A program made the position numbers and the translations under genes. Below are positions 5,298-14,931 of a stretch of 64,000 nt of DNA, piece after piece. Under the pieces are notes generated by a model, which was not told the DNA's origin, made no database searches, and saw only the letters and a list, made by a program, of their open reading frames with translations. Each line of letters starts with the position of its first letter. The first letter of the stretch is position 1. Source of the stretch: an uncultured Candidatus Rokubacteria bacterium (lineage in GTDB: Bacteria; Methylomirabilota; Methylomirabilia; Rokubacteriales; DASRDR01); assembly GCA_963708025.1 (NCBI GenBank), contig CAVPSB010000012.1, positions 1-64,000 on the forward strand, written 5' to 3'.

Positions 5298-5777
5298 TGA
5301 GCACGGCGAAAGCCGGTCCGCTGGCGATCGCCGCCGGCGTGATCGGCCTCGGCCTGTTCTTCCTCCTGGGCGCGCTCCGGCTCTCCGGCGAGGCGGCCTA
5401 CGCCGGGGTCGGCCCCCGGGCCTTTCCGGTCACCATCGGCGGCGCCCTCGTCGTCCTCGGAGTGGCGCTCGCCGTGGCGCTGCTTCGCGGCCTGGAGATC
5501 GAGCCCGAGAGCGGCGAGGACGTGGACGCCAGCCGCGAGGCCGACCTGCGGCCCGCTGGGCTGGATCGTGGCCGGCATCGCGCTCTCGGTCTTCATCCTG
5601 GAGCGGGCCGGGTTCCCCGTCACCGCCGCCATCGTCTTCACGCTGACCGCCCGCGCATTCGGCTCCCGCCGGCTGCTGCGCGACGCCGCGATCGGCCTCG
5701 TCCTGGCCACCCTGACCTACCTGATCTTCGCGCGCGGCCTCGGCGTGTCGCTGCCCGGCGGTCCGTTCCTGGGCTAG
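5297..5777 (+). CDS. tctB: Tripartite tricarboxylate transporter small membrane subunit, frameshift near 5555
   Basis: VGPRAFP motif, hydrophobic segments and terminal LGVSLPGG; located between tctC and tctA; start codon uncertain (CTG after GGAGGT). Confidence 0.85.
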
Positions 5778-5780
5778 TCC

Positions 5781-7271
5781 GTGGACACCCTGGTCGCGCT
5801 CGGCCACGGCTTCACGGTCGCCCTGGCGCCGATCAACCTCCTCTTCGCCCTCGTCGGCGCGGCCCTGGGGACGGCGGTCGGCGTGCTGCCCGGCATCGGC
5901 CCGGCCCTGACGGTGGCCCTCCTGCTGCCGGCGACCTATCAGCTGGCGCCGACCGGCAGCTTCATCATGTTCGCCGGCATCTACTACGGCGCGATGTACG
6001 GCGGCTCGACCACCTCGCATCCTGATCAACACGCCGGGCGAGTCGGCCTCGATCGTCACCGCGCTCGAGGGCTACCGCATGGCCCAGCGCGGGCGAGGCG
6101 CGGCGGCGCTGGCGACGGCGGCCATCGGCTCCTTCGTGGCCGGCACGCTGGCCACGCTCGGGCTGACCTTTCTGGCGCCGGCGCTGGTCGGGGTCGCGCT
6201 CAGCTTCGGCCCCGCCGAGTACTTCGCCCTGATGGTGCTGGCCTTCACCACCGTCTCCGCCGTGCTCGGCGCGTCGCGGCTGCGCGGCGCCATCAGCCTC
6301 TTCTTCGGCCTCGGCCTCGGGCTGATCGGCATCGACACCCAGACCGGCCAGGCGCGCTTCACCCTGGGGGTTCCGGCAGCTCCTCGACGGGATCGACGTG
6401 GTCCTCGTCGTGGTCGGCCTGTTCGCGGTGGGCGAGACGCTCTACGTGGCGAGCCGCTTCCGCGGCGCGTCCGGCGTCATCGCGATCCACGGCTCGCCCT
6501 GGATGACGCGGCGAGGAGTGGCGGCGCTCGTGGAAGCCGTGGCTGCGCGGCACCCTGCTCGGCTTCCCGATCGGGGCGCTGCCGGCCGGCGGCGCCGAGA
6601 TCCCGACCTTCCTCTCCTACCTGGTCGAGAAGCGGCTCTGCAGCGAAGCCGGAGGAGTTCGGCAAGGGCGCCATCGAGGGGGTGGCCGGTCCGGAGGCGG
6701 CGAACAACGCGGCCGCCGCCGGCGTGCTGGCCCCGCTCCTGACCCTCGGGCTGCCCGACCTCGGCCACCGCGGCCATCCTGCTGGCCGCCTTCCAGGGGT
6801 ACGGGCTCCAGCCGGGGCCGCTCCTCTTCCAGAACAACCCCGACCTCGTCTGGGGGCTGATCGCGAGCCTGTACATCGGCAACGTGATGCTGCTGGTCCT
6901 GAACCTGCCGCTGGCGCCGCATCTGGGTGCGCCTCCTCATGATCCCCCGGCCGCTCCTCTACGGCGGCATCGTGGTCTTCGCGCTCCTCGGCGCCTACGC
7001 CGCCAACAACTCGACGGCCGACGTCGCGATCCTCCTCGTCATCGGGGTCGTCGGCTACCTCATGCGCGTGTACGACTTCCCGGTGGCGCCGGTGCTGGTC
7101 GGGATGATCCTCGGCCCGCTCTCCGAGCAGCAGCTCCGGCGCGCGCTGGCCATCAGCCAGGGCAACCCGGCGGTGTTCCTGACCCGGCCGATCGCCGCCA
7201 CGCTCCTCGCCATCGCGGCCCTGCTGCTGGTGGGGCCGCTCCTCTACCAGCTCGCCACCCGGAGGCGCTGA
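5781..7271 (+). CDS. tctA: Tripartite tricarboxylate transporter large membrane subunit, several frameshifts
   Basis: [33 protein letters not shown] and [13 protein letters not shown] are spread over successive frames. Confidence 0.9.
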
Positions 7272-8267
7272 TGCGCATCGCGCTCCTGGGCGCCGGCCGG
7301 ATCGGCGCCCTCCACGCCCGGCTCCTGAAGGCCGACCCCCGCGTCTCGGAGCTGCTCGTCGCCGACGTCGACCCGCCCCGGGCGGCGGCCGTCGCCTCTG
7401 CCGTCGGCGCCCGCGCCGTGGAGACGATCGACGCGGCGCTGGACCGGGCCGAGGCGGTGGTCATCACGGCCGCCACCGACGCCCACGCCGCCCTCATCCG
7501 GGCCGGCGCCGACCGCCGGCTGCCGGTCTTCTGCGAGAAGCCGATCGCCCTGGAGCTGGACGAGACCCGCCGGGTGGTGCAGCACGTCGAGGCCGCCGGC
7601 ATCCCGCTCCAGATCGGCTTCCAGCGCCGCTTCGACCCCGCGTACCGCGAGGCCCGGCGGCTCATCGCGACCGGCGCCCTCGGCACCGTCTACACGATCC
7701 GCCTGGCCGGCCACGACCCGGCCCCGCCCCACGAGGCCTACATCCCGGTCTCGGGCGGGCTCTTCCGCGACTTCTCCATCCACGACTTCGACGTGATCCG
7801 CTGGCTCACCGGCACCGAGGTCGAGGAGGTCTACGCCGACGGGGGCGTCCGTCGGCTTCCCGGTCTTCGCGAAGTACGGGGACGTGGACACCGCGGTGGC
7901 GACGCTCCGGCTCGGCGACGGGACGCTGGCCGTCCTGACGGTCGCCCGCCACGATCCGCTCGGCTACGACATCCGGACCGAGATCTTCGGCTCCAAGGAC
8001 AGCGTGAGCGTCGGGCTCGGGCCGCGGACGCCGATGCGCTCCCTGGAGCCCGGCGTCCCGCCGCCGGCGGGGCCGGCCTGGCAGAACTTCCTCGTCCGGT
8101 TCGAGGACGCCTACCGCGCCGAACTGGGCGAGTTCCTCCGCGTGGCCCGCGGCGAGGCGCCGAGCCCGTGCACGGGGAAGGACGGCCTGGCCGCCCTGGA
8201 GATCGCGGTCGCCGCGACCCGGGCGCTGCGGGAACACCGGCCGGTCCGCGTCGCCGAGGTGCGCTGA
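7271..8267 (+). CDS. Gfo/Idh/MocA oxidoreductase (myo-inositol 2-dehydrogenase-like), frameshift near 7850
   Basis: [32 protein letters not shown] and [11 protein letters not shown]. Confidence 0.88.
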
Positions 8268-8436
8268 TCGCGGGACCGACCGGCCGGCTGGAAACGGTCC
8301 TACCGCAATAGACGCTTGACTCCTCGCCGCACCGGCGACAGAGTCGAGTCGGACGGGCTCGTTCGGCGCGTGAGCTGGTCGCACCGCTCGCCGCAGCGCG
8401 ATCGGCCCCGCCCATGTATCAGCGAGGACCCGAGTG

Positions 8437-10056
8437 ATGTCGTCACCCCAGCCGTTCCCCACCCGGCAGTACGCCTACACGCGGCGAGCCGGCGCCGACG
8501 AGGCGCTCGACGTCCCGCTCCCCGTCCTCGAGGCGGGAGCGACCTATCGCTTCATCATGGGTCGTGACCCCGTTCCCCGGAAGCTCTCGGCCGAGGAAGT
8601 CGGCACCACGCTGCACGACCCGTTCGCTCGGCTCGTGCTCGGTCGCGACCGGTCGCCGCGGACCGCCACCGCGCTCCTGGGAGTGCTCGCCGAGGCCGAT
8701 GGCGAGACCGGCGGCCTGCCGCGACAGCGCGTCTTCCTGGTGGCGGACGGCGGACAGATCCCCTGGCGTGCCGACACTGCCGGGGTGGAGCGCGCGTTCC
8801 GGTTCCTCGTGGCGCGAGGACGGCCCGACCGGGAACCCGCGCTGCTGGTCAGCACGACCGCGCCCTTCGACTCCGAGTCGGCCTTCCTGCAGGTCATCGG
8901 CTGGGATCCGGTGAGCGAGGCCTACCAGTTCTACGACCGGCGGCAGGGCGCCTGGATCTGGGCGGGCAGCTCCTGGGACGCGCTCGCCGCCGACAGCCGT
9001 GGCCAGGGACCGTTCGACAGCCACGTCAACGGCGCCCTCAACATGAAGGAGCTGAAGGCGCCGTGGCTCCACTGGCACAGCCAGGCGGCCGGCATCCGCG
9101 AGGAGGCGCTGGCCGGAAGCGACCCGCTGCGGACGGACCCACTCTGGCAGGCCCGCGAGGGGGCCGAGCGCCTCGAGACCGAGGTCGTCCGCCCGGGCAT
9201 CCAGCGGTGGAACGAGGCACGCTTCCGCGCCTGCCGGCGAGACGGCCGTCTCACCAGGCTGCCCGAGTTCCTGCGCCAGGTGCTCGGCACGTCGACGGTC
9301 AACCTGGTGTCCTCCCCGGTGGAGAGCCGCAAGATCACCCCGGGCCAGCGGGTGCCGCTGCCGCTGACCTTCTTCGTGAACAGCGACGCCCTGGTGGACG
9401 ATCTGGGTCTGGACCCGGGCCTGGCGGCGCCCCTCGCGGTGGATGGCGCGGCCTACCTGCACTGCCTGCGGACGTACGAGGTGGCCATCGCCGACCGGGC
9501 GCACCGGTTCTCCGGCGACACCCATTTCGCCTTCGTCGTCCCCGAGCCGGCCTTCGAGGACCTTCTGGTCCTGCGGGCGCTGCGGACCCTCGGCGTCCTG
9601 CCCGACAAGCTGGCCGCCAGCCTGCTCATGGTCGACTTCAGCAACCCGGTCTTCTCCCGGCGCCGGGCGGAGCTCCTCCGCCACGTGCCCGACTCCGCGA
9701 CGGAGGGCCCCGCGAGCGACTTCCCGGACCGGTTCGTGACCGCCGTCGAGACGGCGGCGGCCGGCCTTCCGCCGGGAAGCCCGCAGCACGAGCTCCTGGC
9801 CAACTGGCGACTGCCGGAGACGGCCTGGCGACCGGAGTTCGAGCGCCGCCTCGCCGCGTTCTTCGCGGCTCTCGCCCCCCGGCTCGCCAGTGCCGAGAGC
9901 TTCGCGCCTCTCTTCGAGCTGGCGGAGTCCCGGCGGCGCGAGTTTCGCCGGCAGCGCCTGGCCGAGTTCCGGCTGACGACCCCGACGACGAACATTCCCG
10001 AGGAGGCGCCCCTTCTCGAGCTCCTCCCGGACTCGGGCATCCGCCCCAAGAGCTGA
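8437..10056 (+). CDS. Hypothetical protein (~539 aa)
   Basis: Long ORF with coding-like codon bias and a GAGGA SD; aromatic-rich core QVIGWD...YQFYDR...WIWAGSSWDAL...GPFDSHVNGALNMKELKAPWLHWHS; no function recognised. Confidence 0.85.
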   Translation: MSSPQPFPTRQYAYTRRAGADEALDVPLPVLEAGATYRFIMGRDPVPRKLSAEEVGTTLHDPFARLVLGRDRSPRTATALLGVLAEADGETGGLPRQRVFLVADGGQIPWRADTAGVERAFRFLVARGRPDREPALLVSTTAPFDSESAFLQVIGWDPVSEAYQFYDRRQGAWIWAGSSWDALAADSRGQGPFDSHVNGALNMKELKAPWLHWHSQAAGIREEALAGSDPLRTDPLWQAREGAERLETEVVRPGIQRWNEARFRACRRDGRLTRLPEFLRQVLGTSTVNLVSSPVESRKITPGQRVPLPLTFFVNSDALVDDLGLDPGLAAPLAVDGAAYLHCLRTYEVAIADRAHRFSGDTHFAFVVPEPAFEDLLVLRALRTLGVLPDKLAASLLMVDFSNPVFSRRRAELLRHVPDSATEGPASDFPDRFVTAVETAAAGLPPGSPQHELLANWRLPETAWRPEFERRLAAFFAALAPRLASAESFAPLFELAESRRREFRRQRLAEFRLTTPTTNIPEEAPLLELLPDSGIRPKS

Positions 10057-10068
10057 AACGGAGGCGAC

Positions 10069-11190
10069 ATGGCGCTGGAGAGATTCGACCCCCCCGGGTT
10101 CGTGGATGACCTGCAGGAGACGCAGAAGAAGGCCTGGAGCGACTGGATCGCCGCAGCCAGCTCGGACGAGGCGCGCGCCCGCGGGACCGGCGGGCCGGCC
10201 GCCTACGGACCACGCTTGCAGTTCTTCAACCCGCTCGACACGGCGCCCGCCACCGACGCGGTGGAAAAGGACATCACGTGGTCGGCGTTCCCCCGGGTCG
10301 TCAAGATCACCTCGGTCAGCGACGTCCAGCGCTGGCGCCGGGCGGATGGGAGCCGCGACCGGCAGGACGAGTACTGCGAGTGGAGCGTCTTCCGGGATGC
10401 GGGAACCCAGAAGATCGTGAAGGTGACGTTCACCAGCGAGGGCCCGGAGTACTGGGAGTTCCTGGCCGCCGTGAGCCCGGACCGGCTGGTCGAGCTCTAC
10501 CGGCAGCACGTGGATCCGTCGGTCAAGCGGCAGGACCTCTTCCGGGCCGATGGCGCCTACGAGGCGCGGAACCGCTGGAACAACTCCACGGACGGCGGGG
10601 CCATGCACCTCATCCAGGGCGCCAACACCCTGGGCGCCGAGATCGAGCTGGCGGCCGCGGCCACGATCGTGCGCCGGCGGAACGGCGTCCTCCTCACCTC
10701 GGAGCGCGAGCTCATCGACTGCGGGCGATACGGGGAGCCCGAGCGCTTCAGCGATCCCCACATCGGCGCCGAGGTGAACGCGCTCGCGCGGCAGAAGGCG
10801 GACCTCACCCTGGCCAACCCCGTCGGCCTGTGCATCGCCGGACTGAGCGTCGCGGGCTGGCAGACACCCGACGGCTCCGATCCCCTGGACTACTGGAAGG
10901 TGACGCGGGGGACGCCCGAGAAGGTGGTGCGCGCAGTCTACGAGGTGCCAGCCGGCCGCGGCTTCGCTGTCGGCGACATCACGATCGGGGGCCGCCGGAT
11001 CGAGTACGGGGCCCAGATCGCCGACTTCATCACCATCAAGCTGACCGGCCTCGCCACCCGCCTTGGCCAGAGCGCGGTCGGTCCCGTGGACGGCTGCGTC
11101 GGGGAGGCGGAGGGGGACGTGGGGGTGCTGGCGGCGGTGGTGCCCTCCGTGGAGTCCGTCCTGGCCCGCCGCCGGCAGGTGACGCGCTGA
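10069..11190 (+). CDS. Hypothetical protein (373 aa)
   Basis: GGAGG SD, 12 nt after the upstream stop; motif-like blocks QDEYCEW, FTSEGPEYW, HLIQGANTLGAEIELAA and FSDPHIG; no function recognised. Confidence 0.87.
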   Translation: MALERFDPPGFVDDLQETQKKAWSDWIAAASSDEARARGTGGPAAYGPRLQFFNPLDTAPATDAVEKDITWSAFPRVVKITSVSDVQRWRRADGSRDRQDEYCEWSVFRDAGTQKIVKVTFTSEGPEYWEFLAAVSPDRLVELYRQHVDPSVKRQDLFRADGAYEARNRWNNSTDGGAMHLIQGANTLGAEIELAAAATIVRRRNGVLLTSERELIDCGRYGEPERFSDPHIGAEVNALARQKADLTLANPVGLCIAGLSVAGWQTPDGSDPLDYWKVTRGTPEKVVRAVYEVPAGRGFAVGDITIGGRRIEYGAQIADFITIKLTGLATRLGQSAVGPVDGCVGEAEGDVGVLAAVVPSVESVLARRRQVTR

Positions 11191-11328: not shown

Positions 11329-12066
11329 ATGGCCATGGCGGACCAGGTGTTCGGTGCGGGAGAGTTCCGGACCACCAAGAATCCCCGCGTGGGCGTCCTC
11401 ACGCTCCGCTCGGGAGCCGGGCGGCAGTACCGGTACTCCGAGATCGACGGGATCGGCATCTTCGAGGGTGACATCGTGCTCGCCCGCGGCCTCGAGCTGC
11501 AGGGGATCGGGGTCGTGCGGCCCGGCGCACGATGGCCCGGCCGTACGATCGTCTACGATGTCAACGCCGCCCTGCCGGGCACCCAGCGCGTCACCGAAGC
11601 CATCGCCCACTGGGAAGCGACGACCGTGATCAGGTTCAAGAAGCGGAGCGCGGAGCAGGACTACGTGTTCTTCCGGGACGGCGGTGGCTGCAGCTCGGCC
11701 GTGGGCCGCATCGGGGGCGTGCAGTGGATCACCCTCGGCGCCCAGTGCTCGACGGGCAACGCGATCCACGAGATCGGCCACGCGGTGGGGCTCTGGCACG
11801 AGCAGAGCCGCGCGGACCGGGACGAGCACCTGACGATCATGTGGGACAACATCGAGCCGCTCTATCAGCACAATTTCGACCAGCACATCACCGACGGGGA
11901 CGACATCGGACCCTACGACTACGGCTCGATCATGCACTACCCGAAGGTCGCCTTCGCCATCGACCCGGCCAAGCCGACCCTCGTCACCCGGAACGGCGAG
12001 GAGATCGGCCAGCGCAATGGGCTCAGCCCGGGCGACATCGCAGCGGTGGCCGAGATCTATGCCTGA
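11329..12066 (+). CDS. Astacin-family (M12A) zinc metallopeptidase, no signal peptide
   Basis: HEIGHAVGLWHEQSRADRD, Met-turn SIMHY, propeptide FEGDI, GCSSAVG and IGQRNGLS. Confidence 0.93.
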   Translation: MAMADQVFGAGEFRTTKNPRVGVLTLRSGAGRQYRYSEIDGIGIFEGDIVLARGLELQGIGVVRPGARWPGRTIVYDVNAALPGTQRVTEAIAHWEATTVIRFKKRSAEQDYVFFRDGGGCSSAVGRIGGVQWITLGAQCSTGNAIHEIGHAVGLWHEQSRADRDEHLTIMWDNIEPLYQHNFDQHITDGDDIGPYDYGSIMHYPKVAFAIDPAKPTLVTRNGEEIGQRNGLSPGDIAAVAEIYA

Positions 12067-13258
12067 GCCGGCCCCGCCCCTCCTGTTCGACGCCCGGGCC
12101 GGTCTGGGCCGGGCCCCGGGGCTTCACGCGCTGATCGTCGGGGTCGGCTCCTACCCGAGCCTGCAGGGCGGGGCCGAGACGGTGGCGGAGCCGTGGGACA
12201 TGGGCCAGCTCTCCTCCACCGCCTCGTCCGCCCACAGGGTCTACGAGTGGCTCCGCAAGGCCGACGACGAGAAGCGCCTCCCGGTCCCGCTGGCCACCTG
12301 CCGCGTCCTGCTCTCGCCGATGCCGGCCGAGGCCCACCTGGCGGGGGTCGGCCTCCCGGCGACGCTCGCCAACTTCGGCCCCGCGGCCCACGCCTGGCGT
12401 GACGACTGCAAAGCCGACCGGGGCAGCGTGGCGTTCTTCTACTTCGCCGGGCACGGCGTCCAGCGCACGAAGGACGACGCCGTCTTCTGTCTCCAGGAGT
12501 TCCGGAAGCCCGGCTTCGGCACACTTTTCCACTCGGTCGCGCTCGCGAACCTTCGCGGCGGCATGTCACCGGCCCCGGGCTTCGAGGAGATGGCGCGCAC
12601 CCAGTTCTACTTCTTCGATGCCTGTCGCGTGCGCCCCGACCGGTTCGCGGAGTTCGAGCGGATGGGCACGAGCGACGTTTTCGAGGTGGCCCTGGCCGGG
12701 AAGGACGACCGGTGCTCGCCCATCTTCTTCGGGGCCATCTCCAACCAGGCCGCCCAGGCGCTGCCGGGACAGCAGACGCTCTTCAGTCGGGCCGTCCTCG
12801 AGTGTCTCGAGGGCGAAGCGGCGGAGGAGGTGGGCGAGACGCCCGCCGGCGAGGTGCAGTGGGCGGTGACGGTCAGCTCGCTGAGCGAGCAGCTCCAGAC
12901 CGTGAAGATCGACCAGCTCAACCGCGACTTCCAGGCCGACCAGACCTACGCGCCCGGTGGGGAGTTCCGGACGGGTACCATCTGCCGGCTCAACGCCGTG
13001 CCCGAGGTCCGACTGCGCCTGGAGGTGATCCCGCCGGAGGCGTGCCTGGTGGGCAAGCTGACGCTCGTCCGGCAGGGAGACGGCGTGGTGCTCGAAGCGA
13101 TGCCTCCGATCGACCCCCATCCCTACGAGCGGTCGCTGCCGGCCGGGATCTACCATCTCGAGCTCTCGTTCGACCCACCCCATCCCGTCTTCAAGAAGGC
13201 CAGCCGGGACTGGTACGTCCGACCCTTCCGGTTCGAGAAGAAAGTGAAGGTGGGCTGA
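12059..13258 (+). CDS. Caspase-family (C14, metacaspase-like) cysteine protease with a C-terminal beta-rich domain
   Basis: HALIVGV, FFYFAGHG (catalytic His) and FFDACR (catalytic Cys); ATG overlaps the 3' end of the astacin gene. Confidence 0.9.
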   Translation: MPEPAPPLLFDARAGLGRAPGLHALIVGVGSYPSLQGGAETVAEPWDMGQLSSTASSAHRVYEWLRKADDEKRLPVPLATCRVLLSPMPAEAHLAGVGLPATLANFGPAAHAWRDDCKADRGSVAFFYFAGHGVQRTKDDAVFCLQEFRKPGFGTLFHSVALANLRGGMSPAPGFEEMARTQFYFFDACRVRPDRFAEFERMGTSDVFEVALAGKDDRCSPIFFGAISNQAAQALPGQQTLFSRAVLECLEGEAAEEVGETPAGEVQWAVTVSSLSEQLQTVKIDQLNRDFQADQTYAPGGEFRTGTICRLNAVPEVRLRLEVIPPEACLVGKLTLVRQGDGVVLEAMPPIDPHPYERSLPAGIYHLELSFDPPHPVFKKASRDWYVRPFRFEKKVKVG

Positions 13259-14572
13259 TGCCGCGCCTGTCCTTCACGCTCGGCTTCCAGTTCGACCGAG
13301 ATGAACGCCCTCGACCTGCCGATCGAGGTCCGCAAGCCCAGCTCGGCTCTGGTGGCCCGGACGCGGTCGTCGCAGGCGGTCGACCTCCCGCCGGGCGTGT
13401 ACTACGTGACGACCCGGTTGCCGGCCGGCCAGCAGATCACGCGCTCGGTGGACCTCACCGGGGGGTCGCGCCAGCTCCGGCTCGAGCCCGACCCCGAGGA
13501 TGCCGGGGACCACGAGTGGGACGAGCAGCGGCACTTCCTCGACCCCGCGCGCCCGGCGGCGATGGCGCGCGGCCGGGCGGAGTGGGCCGCTCCGGAGGAG
13601 GCGGCGCCGGCGCCGGGCACGCTGGACGCCGCGCCGCCGCCGGCCGGTGCCGGCGCGGAGTCGGCCCTCGTCGAGGGCCGCGGCGCCCTGCGGGTCTTTT
13701 CGGGCAACCTCCTCCTGGGGCCGGGGACGCTCGAAGCGGCGACCGTCGTGCTGCGCCTGCAGCAATTCGAGGCCGGCCGCGTCGTGTACCTCGGGGTGCA
13801 GGCGTCGTCCCCGGTCGTGGTGCAGCTCCTCGAGGTGGGGTCCGCCGCCCTGAACCAGGTCGTGCCGCCGGGCGCCCGGCTTGCGGTCAGCCACCGCCCC
13901 ACCCCGGAGATCAAGGCCGGCAGCCTCTTCAAGCTGGAAGCCTTCACCCGGAACCCGATAGCCAACCTGCAGCTCCGCTACTGTCGCCAGGGAGCCTACC
14001 GGCGGGCGGGCTCCGCCGCCGAGTCGGAGCGCCTGCTGTACGAGAAGATCGACGATCCGGTAGCCGCCGCGATCGGGGCGTACAGCCTCTTCCGGATCGG
14101 CGCGCTGGAGCGCCTCCACGACTGGACGGCGAACCTGGACGCGATGTTCCCCTGGCTGCCGGACGGCGCCGCGATCCGTGGCGAGCATCTGGCCCGGCTC
14201 GGGCGGCACGTCGAGGCGCTTGCCGCCTTCGCCAGGCTCCCCGAGCGCGGGCTCCCGGTCGTGGCCGACGGGCTGTTCTACGCCGTCGAGCGGATGAAGC
14301 TCTACTCGCGCCTGTCTCCCGAGCGGTCGGAGGGCGTCGGCGTGGAGCAGGCCCGCGCGGTGCTCGCGAAGCTCGAGCGCTTCGCGGGTGTCGTGCACCA
14401 GCAGCGCCCCCTCACCAGCTTTCCGGGTGTCGATCCCGCCCGGCCCGACGCCCGCCTCCTGAGGGCGGGCGAGGCCTTCCCGGGCATGCTCCAGCTGGAC
14501 TGGCTGGTGGCCCCCTCGGCTCCGGGGCCAGGGACCGACCCGCCGCCGGCGGCGAGCGCCCGCTCCGCCTGA
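13258..14572 (+). CDS. Hypothetical caspase-adjacent protein (~437 aa; start probably ATG 13258 with a 1-nt indel before 13301)
   Basis: TGATG coupling to the caspase gene; N-terminal VDLPPGVYYV beta motif, acidic/Pro-Ala linker, helical C-terminus (LLYEKIDDPVAAAIGAY...WTANLDAMFPWLPDG). Confidence 0.82.
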
Positions 14573-14577
14573 GCCAC

Positions 14578-14931
14578 GTGGCCGAAGAGGTCGTCGAGGG
14601 ACGCATCGTATTCGGCGAGGACTCGGTGCCCTTCGAAGGCGCTTCCGTCGAGGTGACCATCGAGGACACGACCTACGCGGACGCGCCGGCCGTGCGGCTC
14701 GCCCGTCTCGTGCTCAGGGCGGTGACGCACGACGGGCGGGCGGGCGGGAGCATCCCGTTCTCGCTGCGCCGGGACGCTTCCGCCCCGCACCGGCGGCAGA
14801 GCCTCCGCGTCGTGGTGGACGTGGACGGCGACGGCCGGCTCGGCGTCGGCGACTACCGGAACGCCGAGAGCGTACCGGTGCCACCCGGGCCGGTGACGGG
14901 CCTGGTGGTCAGGATGCGACGCCTGAGCTGA
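14578..14931 (+). CDS. YbaY/YscW-like beta-sandwich protein without a lipoprotein signal
   Basis: GTG start 5 nt after the upstream stop; VEVTIEDTTYADAPAVRLA and IPFSL; DVDGDG loop. Confidence 0.72.
   Translation: MAEEVVEGRIVFGEDSVPFEGASVEVTIEDTTYADAPAVRLARLVLRAVTHDGRAGGSIPFSLRRDASAPHRRQSLRVVVDVDGDGRLGVGDYRNAESVPVPPGPVTGLVVRMRRLS

What the first reader, a model, noticed from the sequence alone, without database searches (positions are those of the whole stretch)
12059..14572. Caspase and translationally coupled partner look like a protease-substrate pair
Seen: the caspase ends with a beta-rich domain containing SLPAGIYHL, and the next protein begins with a similar motif, VDLPPGVYYV. That motif is followed by an acidic, Pro/Ala-rich linker (DPEDAGDHEWDE...APEEAAPAPGTLDAAPPPAGAG) and a helical C-terminal domain. 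Inference: the two Ig/PEGA-like domains could dock the proteins, and the exposed linker could be the cleavage site releasing an effector domain.
Basis: partly seen in the sequence, partly recalled or inferred. Interest (0 to 1): 0.7.

Follow-up and report, generated by a model that had tools for sequence, protein, structure and literature searches.

The report
Nuclease-free Canu protease with astacin zymogen
The two genes are relatives of the protease pair (CanA, CanB) of the known bacterial anti-phage system Canu, but the DNA-cutting enzyme that pair normally switches on is missing here, and the pair likely switches on a neighbouring latent metal-dependent protease instead.

Summary
The observation largely holds. 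The caspase (12059-13258) has an invariant His132/Cys189 dyad, a MALT1-like fold and a C-terminal Ig-like domain. The partner is modelled as an Ig-like domain, a disordered linker, a second beta domain and a TPR-like domain (PF27295). Its coupled start (ATG 13258) is out of frame by one extra base at 13291, probably an assembly error. The pair is conserved: 27 of 29 informative metagenome loci have the caspase directly upstream, and fusions occur. It is homologous to CanA/CanB of Canu (Tuck 2025), where CanB is a complex partner and the MBL pro-nuclease CanC is the substrate, so the partner is more likely a cofactor than the target. No canC is linked here. The upstream astacin carries the FEGDI latency motif and LELQG at its predicted pro/mature junction, resembling CanC's gating sites (LEGLG, LESMG). 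The same tag marks other CanAB neighbours: alpha/beta-hydrolases (4 of 9), prophenoloxidase-like (6 of 6) and ferritin-like proteins (2 of 2). Best reading: CanAB is a general zymogen-activating protease, here acting on astacin. Cleavage, binding and defence are untested.

The parts
11329..12066 (+). Astacin (M12A) metalloprotease gene with a propeptide and no obvious signal peptide (start may be 11335); proposed substrate. Its stop overlaps the caspase start by 8 nt.
   Evidence: PF01400 E 3.7e-50; HExxHxxGxxHE and SxMHY motifs; same-length contigs hold astacin, caspase and partner homologues (matched by eye)
11461..11475 (+). FEGDI propeptide (aspartate-switch) latency motif of the astacin
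   Evidence: motif defined in PMC9629494
11491..11505 (+). LELQG putative CanAB recognition tag at the predicted pro/mature junction, ten residues before the conserved Trp
   Evidence: cleavage is inferred
12059..13258 (+). CanA-like caspase (399 aa): caspase domain plus C-terminal Ig-like domain (residues 316-397)
   Evidence: PF00656; H132 (12452-12454) and C189 (12623-12625) invariant in 108 sequences; model pLDDT 95; top Foldseek hits are MALT1, E 3e-9
13258..14572 (+). CanB-like partner (PF27295 Y4kD_C): Ig-like domain, conserved acidic helix, disordered linker, second beta domain, TPR-like domain. The ORF as assembled starts at 13301.
   Evidence: by-eye match to KaeCanB; blastp E 1e-8 to 3e-7 to second genes of four of five caspase-X-MBL loci
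13291..13292 (+). One extra base that shifts the partner's coupled start out of frame; probably an assembly error
   Evidence: homologue N-termini; contig of run X1 lacks one base at 13291
13541..13681 (+). Variable Pro/Ala-rich linker of the partner; holds only a degenerate tag (TLDAA, 13619-13633)
   Evidence: low conservation; pLDDT 58-67 in the homologue model
14578..14931 (+). Small YbaY/YscW-like beta protein; recurs in astacin-type CanAB loci; role unknown
   Evidence: PF09619 E 0.009, below cut-off; homologues in L010, L011, L013, L016, L024, L025 and an annotated YbaY in L005
8434..11190 (+). Two upstream unnamed genes (540 aa at 8434-10056; 373 aa at 10069-11190) on the same strand; membership of the module is doubtful
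   Evidence: no Pfam, NCBIfam or PADLOC hit; no homologue in loci L001-L039; no tag in the 540-aa protein and one buried-looking loose match in the 373-aa protein; both have unnamed relatives elsewhere

Best explanation
The two genes encode homologues of CanA and CanB of the Canu anti-phage system, which likely form one protease complex and, lacking the CanC nuclease here, would likely cut the propeptide off the neighbouring astacin zymogen to unleash it. CanA supplies the His132/Cys189 active site. CanB (Ig + beta + TPR-like) is inferred to be a non-catalytic subunit that stabilises or regulates CanA and may sense the trigger or recruit substrate. On a trigger (phage infection, by analogy with Canu; inferred), the complex would cleave at or within the LELQG tag. 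That would remove the FEGDI zinc-blocking propeptide and give an active cytoplasmic metalloprotease as the toxic output: a two-protease cascade. Across the family the same core appears to be paired with exchangeable latent enzymes bearing the tag.
For: Homology. KaeCanA and KaeCanB (supplement Table S1; compared by eye) share the window proteins' motifs in order: PG.HALI.GV..Y, GQLS, LLSP, AGHGVQ, D.CR (C187 vs C189), PAGIY; and PG.Y.V, L.EK..DP, WLPD. The caspase's best fold match is MALT1, as reported for CanA. The window proteins hit genes 1 and 2 of caspase-X-MBL plasmid loci (blastp E 1e-27 to 2e-13, 5 of 5; and 1e-8 to 3e-7, 4 of 5). Pairing. Of 32 metagenome loci found with the partner as query, 3 have no upstream DNA and 27 of the other 29 have the caspase directly upstream; 22 of 31 junctions overlap by 1 or 4 nt; fusions in L002, L003, L045, L059, L060 and P0207. 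No CanC. The only hits of an MBL profile in G000 are a full-length one on C16 beside an S8 protease, without the tag, and a short partial one on C18; 0 of 32 metagenome loci carry an MBL in the DNA held. Tag. The CanC glycines needed for defence lie in LEGLG104 and LESMG189. [LIVFYW]E-x-[LMFYQ]G occurs in MBL 6/6, astacin 5/6, hydrolase 4/7, prophenoloxidase-like 6/6 (11 hits, 1.0 expected) and ferritin-like 2/2; controls 7/29 (7 hits, 4.0 expected). The last two classes were first seen after the motif was fixed (then). Astacin. The window's caspase groups with the three other astacin-linked metagenome caspases (100/100). A distant astacin-like gene beside a distant caspase (L004) has FEAFG at the same place. 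Astacin maturation is thought to need preliminary cleavages or partial unfolding (PMC9629494).
Against: No binding, cleavage or defence was measured, and no complex was modelled. The CanC cut sites are hypothesised from Gly mutants, not mapped in the text I read, so the tag's scissile bond is unknown. Gly at the astacin junction is common without known linkage (76 of 106 unlabelled homologues). The tag is in 42 of those 106 and falls with distance from the window's astacin (32/40, 18/40, 4/39), which shared ancestry alone could give. Linkage labels for the 13 astacins rest on equal contig lengths only. Members of each substrate class are kin, so 6/6 counts as about one event. The motif was drawn from MBL and astacin sequences, so those two classes are not independent tests. 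Five of 9 hydrolases lack it, as does the L005 astacin. Many CanAB loci show none of the four profiled neighbours. The genes flanking the cluster are transporters and metabolic genes (partly by eye), not an evident defence island. L038, L039 and one copy in L029 have no caspase upstream.
Confidence: 0.5

Rival explanations
1. One reading: the partner itself is the main substrate. The caspase cuts its linker and frees the C-terminal part as the effector.
For: The linker is variable and low-confidence. The tag is enriched in family linkers: 25 of 129 vs 0.7 shuffled (max 5), LES 21 vs 2.2. The window's L108-D109 aligns to the tag column. Some homologues carry C-terminal enzymes (trypsin+PLD, trypsin+Endonuclease_NS), three with LESLG just before the trypsin domain.
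Against: The window's linker has no tag match, and about 80% of family linkers lack it. The C-terminal region is TPR-like with no enzyme family hit. The domains model as one rigid unit (pTM 0.90). KaeCanB co-elutes with wild-type CanA as a complex, and CanC is the activated effector. The window's partner has no fused enzyme.
Confidence: 0.13
2. CanAB acts on an unlinked host or phage protein, or is a broad executioner itself. The astacin is a co-inherited neighbour that matures by itself or through another protease.
For: Several complete CanAB loci have no profiled substrate neighbour (L023, L030, L032). An effector-independent defensive caspase has been reported (PMC12642450 discussion). Gly at astacin junctions is general.
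Against: Astacin-linked caspases form a supported clade with the window's. The tag recurs in unrelated neighbours. The astacin and caspase genes overlap.
Confidence: 0.2
3. The protease chemistry is as proposed, but the role is not anti-phage: for example stress-triggered or developmental activation of proteases, oxidases and hydrolases.
For: The surroundings are not an evident defence island. Partners such as prophenoloxidase-like and ferritin-like/LodA proteins are not established phage effectors.
Against: Distribution is patchy (1 of 251, 1 of 401 and 1 of 401 genomes). Homologous loci lie on plasmids near restriction, TIR, Qat, S8/AAA and IS genes. The Klebsiella system is anti-phage.
Confidence: 0.12
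4. A decayed Canu locus: canC lost and canB truly frameshifted.
For: The assembled canB is frameshifted; no canC is linked.
Against: A near-identical contig lacks the extra base. Other genes of the window also look frameshifted (by eye). The astacin-caspase-partner arrangement recurs intact in L005, L011, L024 and L025, and with the YbaY-like gene interposed in L010. The catalytic residues are intact.
Confidence: 0.05

Closest known systems
Canu (KaeCanABC), Tuck et al. 2025 Science, PMC12799240 (seen: passages, section 8, supplementary Table S1/S2 rows)
   Same: MALT1-like caspase with C-terminal Ig domain followed by an Ig/TPR partner; shared sequence motifs with KaeCanA and KaeCanB; gene order A then B.
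   Different: No linked MBL pro-nuclease CanC; an astacin zymogen upstream and a YbaY-like gene downstream instead; the window's caspase lies apart from the six MBL-linked caspases in the tree.
Protease-effector modules (MBL, alpha/beta-hydrolase, EACC1, Pepco), bioRxiv preprint PMC12642450 (seen: passages, section 7)
   Same: A linked protease activates a latent effector by site-specific cleavage; caspases pair with MBL and alpha/beta-hydrolases.
   Different: Those proteases are mostly fused to STAND or other sensors; the LcHydrolase site is Arg-Gly; 'astacin' and 'metalloprotease' do not occur in the main text.
Y4kD of Sinorhizobium fredii NGR234 / Pfam PF27295 Y4kD_C
   Same: Same family; the pNGR234a member, taken to be y4kD from its length (recalled), follows a caspase gene.
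   Different: That locus has an alpha/beta-hydrolase upstream and a longer partner (549 aa); I found no paper on it.
Astacin zymogens, PMC9629494 (seen: passages)
   Same: FEGDI aspartate-switch propeptide motif, HExxHxxGxxH-E zinc site, Met-turn.
   Different: Animal astacins are secreted (general knowledge); this one shows no obvious signal peptide and sits in a caspase operon. Weak likeness to LegP (NF045530, 258 bits, below the 300 cut-off).
Human MALT1 paracaspase
   Same: Caspase plus Ig architecture; best Foldseek match.
   Different: 9-12% identity; the domains do not superpose jointly (rmsd ~17 A; caspase domain alone 4.9 A).

Membership tests
Canu (CanABC) | CanA: caspase with His/Cys dyad, MALT1-like fold, C-terminal Ig-like domain | tested here: met
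   by-eye match to KaeCanA
Canu (CanABC) | CanB: adjacent downstream gene with Ig-like and TPR-like domains | tested here: met
   (TPR-like Z 7-9, Ig-like Z 6.4-7: middling); by-eye match to KaeCanB; blastp to second genes of caspase-X-MBL loci
Canu (CanABC) | Linked gated MBL pro-nuclease (CanC) | tested here: not met
   No MBL hit on contig C12; the genome's full-length MBL hit lies on C16 beside an S8 protease and lacks the tag
Canu (CanABC) | CanA and CanB form a complex | not tested
Canu (CanABC) | Anti-phage activity dependent on the catalytic Cys | not testable with these tools
   needs a phage challenge
Canu (CanABC) | Location in defence islands or near transposases | tested here: inconclusive
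   Only six cluster proteins were scanned with PADLOC (one caspase hit, E 1.9e-12); the immediate flanks look metabolic; the rest of the window was not annotated
Caspase with a dedicated cleaved effector (EACC1 or hydrolase type) | The adjacent partner is a latent effector with a conserved cleavage site | tested here: inconclusive
   No effector domain recognised; tag absent from the window's linker, present in 25 of 129 family linkers
Astacin (M12A) zymogen | HExxHxxGxxH-E, Met-turn and F-E/Q-G-D-I propeptide motif | tested here: met

The most novel reading that the evidence does not exclude
CanAB is a general bacterial zymogen convertase that reads one short tag (consensus L-E-[S/A/T]-[L/M]-G) in exchangeable latent enzymes: MBL nuclease (known Canu), astacin (this window), alpha/beta-hydrolase, trypsin-nuclease fusions, ferritin-like proteins beside LodA and, most strikingly, hemocyanin/prophenoloxidase-like copper enzymes (9 of 32 metagenome loci). 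That would give bacteria a caspase-to-metalloprotease cascade and a caspase-triggered counterpart of arthropod prophenoloxidase (melanisation) immunity.
Probability: 0.4. Interest if true: 0.82.

Novelty: new variant of a known kind. Interest (0 to 1): 0.62.

Why it matters
Canu was defined from its nuclease, and CanB's role and the caspase's specificity are open. Starting from CanB shows that nuclease-free loci are common (0 of 32 metagenome loci had an MBL, though the query was biased towards this clade) and that unrelated neighbours share a candidate cleavage tag. This gives direct tests: map the cut in the tag, swap substrates between loci, and assay astacin or prophenoloxidase-like proteins as new effectors. 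It also links the unnamed family PF27295 (1634 cluster representatives at E<=0.001) to a characterised protein.

Tried and rejected
The genome-contig scan gave one hit, L001, which no profile confirmed: spurious. L048 was a weak hit with no profile support; dropped. L049's partner scored only E 8e-6, fell below the cut and is not in that tally. No phage record matches the caspase. Foldseek found no partner match at E<=0.001; VIA matches are middling. Literature searches with no relevant result: PF27295, y4kD, caspase+astacin+operon+anti-phage, prophenoloxidase/hemocyanin with caspase in bacteria; two searches returned only the Canu paper as relevant. Passages of 10.1101/2025.09.30.679545 and PMC13069673 added nothing on this pair. 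The Canu paper's text supplement (Figs S2, S18-S21) was not among the files searched and the supplement of PMC12642450 was not looked at; either may already show nuclease-free or astacin-containing loci. Earlier scan findings: none. Rejected: that the shared xLPxGxY motif implies docking (weak profile match; from general knowledge a common feature of such beta-sandwiches); that the acidic stretch is the exposed site (conserved helix); that the two upstream orphans are core parts (no homologue in L001-L039). Some fusion partners (ABC permease, alpha-amylase, phycobilisome) may be gene-calling artefacts and were not used.
Full report
What is there. The + strand carries a run of genes: two unnamed ORFs (8434-10056, 10069-11190), an astacin (11329-12066; PF01400 E 3.7e-50), a caspase (12059-13258; PF00656 E 4.6e-6), the partner (ORF 13301-14572) and a small YbaY/YscW-like gene (14578-14931). 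The ATG overlapping the caspase stop (13258) is one base out of frame with the partner. Close homologues have about 14 more N-terminal residues that match the 13258 frame. One contig of run X1 lacks a base at 13291 (a single contig at depth 5, with 4 other differences in 343 bp). I read this as an assembly error, so translational coupling is probably real. In relatives, 22 of 31 junctions overlap by 1 or 4 nt.

Anatomy. The caspase has His132 and Cys189 invariant in 108 aligned sequences. It models at pLDDT 95 with an all-beta domain at 316-397, and its best fold matches are MALT1. The partner belongs to PF27295 Y4kD_C (all 72 hits), a family of at least 1634 cluster representatives. An intact homologue (P0005, 64% identical) models at pLDDT 92, pTM 0.90: Ig-like 1-75, helix 86-94, low-confidence linker ~100-135, second beta domain 141-225, helical domain 229-372. 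The helical part matches TPR proteins at Z 7-9 and the N-terminal part matches Ig/CnaB-like domains at Z 6.4-7; these scores show a common arrangement only. The two Ig-like domains are weakly alike (hhalign 25%), which says little about docking.

The pair is conserved. Of 32 metagenome loci found with the partner alignment, 3 lack upstream DNA, 27 of the other 29 have the caspase directly upstream, and 2 (L038, L039, both partial matches) do not; L029 has an extra copy without one. Some loci are near-duplicates. Fusions of caspase and partner domains occur in L002, L003, L045, L059, L060 and P0207. The module is rare and patchy: 1 of 251 genomes of the window's phylum (the window's own), and 1 of 401 in each of two samples of another group.

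What it is. Six plasmid loci read caspase, partner, MBL hydrolase. That is the Canu layout of PMC12799240 (section 8): CanA is a MALT1-like caspase with an Ig domain, CanA and CanB co-elute as a soluble complex, and CanAB turns CanC into a nuclease. The published KaeCanA and KaeCanB sequences, compared by eye, share the window proteins' conserved motifs in order. The window proteins hit the corresponding genes of the MBL loci by blastp. So the finding is the CanAB core. It is not a full Canu member: no MBL is linked, and the genome's full-length MBL relative sits on another contig beside its own S8 protease and lacks the tag. None of the 32 metagenome loci has an MBL in the DNA held; their neighbours are prophenoloxidase/hemocyanin-like genes (9), alpha/beta-hydrolases (5) and astacins (4).

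The likely substrate. The two CanC glycines needed for defence lie in LEGLG and LESMG, and the six MBL neighbours show matching loops. The window's astacin has the FEGDI latency motif (PMC9629494) followed by LELQG, which ends ten residues before the conserved Trp, where I place the mature N-terminus from recalled astacin numbering. With a motif fixed, the only clear match among the six cluster proteins at a plausible processing site is this one. The partner's linker has none; other loose matches are two in the caspase, two in the partner's helical domain and one in the 373-aa ORF. The window's caspase forms a 100/100 clade with the caspases directly upstream of the partner in L010, L011 and L024 (35 rows, near-duplicates and partial caspases left out). 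Neighbours seen only after the motif was fixed also carry it, in a stricter form: prophenoloxidase-like 6/6 (11 hits vs 1.0 expected, each with an N-terminal copy) and ferritin-like 2/2, against controls 7/29 (7 vs 4.0). Against this: classes are internally related; Gly at astacin junctions is general (76 of 106); tag frequency falls with sequence distance; 5 of 9 hydrolases and the L005 astacin lack the strict tag; and whether the cut is after Glu or after Gly is unknown.

The tag is enriched in partner linkers across the family (25 of 129 representatives vs 0.7), and three trypsin-fused partners have LESLG just before the trypsin domain. In some members the partner is therefore plausibly cut. 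In the window the site is degenerate (TLDAA), no enzyme is fused, and the C-terminal domain is TPR-like, so release of an effector is unlikely here.

Mechanism and status. Shown: gene arrangement, conservation, folds, catalytic residues, homology to CanA/CanB, absence of a linked canC, presence and enrichment of the tag. From the literature on a homologue: the A-B complex, pro-enzyme activation, phage defence. Inferred: a complex in this organism, cleavage of pro-astacin, toxicity of mature astacin, and a defensive role. I put the CanAB-complex reading at about 0.85 and the whole cascade at about 0.5.

Novelty. The core is known. The nuclease-free, astacin-linked form and the shared tag across unrelated neighbours did not turn up in my searches, and 'astacin', 'hemocyanin' and 'tyrosinase' do not occur in the Canu paper's main text; its figure supplement, which I did not see, may show such loci. 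Verdict: new variant of a known kind, interest 0.62, with a family-level extension (general zymogen convertase, prophenoloxidase-like effectors) that would be considerably more interesting if confirmed.

Noticed in passing
L008:4306-6306, L012:4339-6315, L018:1087-3186, L019:281-2293, L033:1218-3263, L034:4497-6446 (also L017, L021, L035): Bacterial hemocyanin/prophenoloxidase-like genes (PF00372 + PF03723 + PF00264) directly upstream of CanAB, with an N-terminal LE[SAT][LM]G tag and mostly a second copy about 100 residues later.
   Followed up: partly
L018:6313-9512, L021:2932-4182: Ferritin-like (PF12902) gene with an N-terminal tag right after canB; followed by a LodA-like lysine oxidase in L018, which has a tag match near its C-terminus.
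   Followed up: partly
L004:7383-12749, L005:7269-11393, P0265, P0275, P0282, P0321, P0247, P0316, L029:4706-6538, L012, P0249: CanB-like module fused N-terminally to trypsin, trypsin+PLD, trypsin+Endonuclease_NS, sigma-70 region 4, Hsp70, metallophosphoesterase or DUF5995.
   Followed up: partly
L011:1-4049; P0086, P0118, P0124, P0172, P0176, P0182: Loci with several CanA-like caspases in a row around the astacin, and longer 610-660 aa caspase proteins, one with two caspase domains.
   Followed up: no
G000:C16:186070-189444 (L061): S8 subtilase followed by an MBL hydrolase: a second protease-effector pair in the same genome.
   Followed up: partly
G000:C16:371292-375765 (L062): Fragment paralogous to the window's 540-aa orphan (E 1e-24) upstream of an M4 metallopeptidase and a CHAT protease gene. 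A homologue of the 373-aa orphan in L056 is fused in a 954-aa protein after an M4 peptidase. Both orphans seem to travel with metalloprotease clusters.
   Followed up: partly
window 5300-8300: Tripartite tricarboxylate transporter-like and dehydrogenase-like genes appear split across frames, suggesting frequent indel errors in this assembly (by eye).
   Followed up: no
L043:6334-7711, L045:5806-7682: TIR-domain genes (with a second caspase in L043, resembling type IV Thoeris) lie next to Canu loci.
   Followed up: no
L002, L003, L060 hydrolase genes: Hydrolases beside fused CanA-CanB carry L-[LI]-G-M-G instead of the Glu-containing tag, hinting that the constant part is hydrophobic-Gly and that specificity co-varies by clade.
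   Followed up: partly
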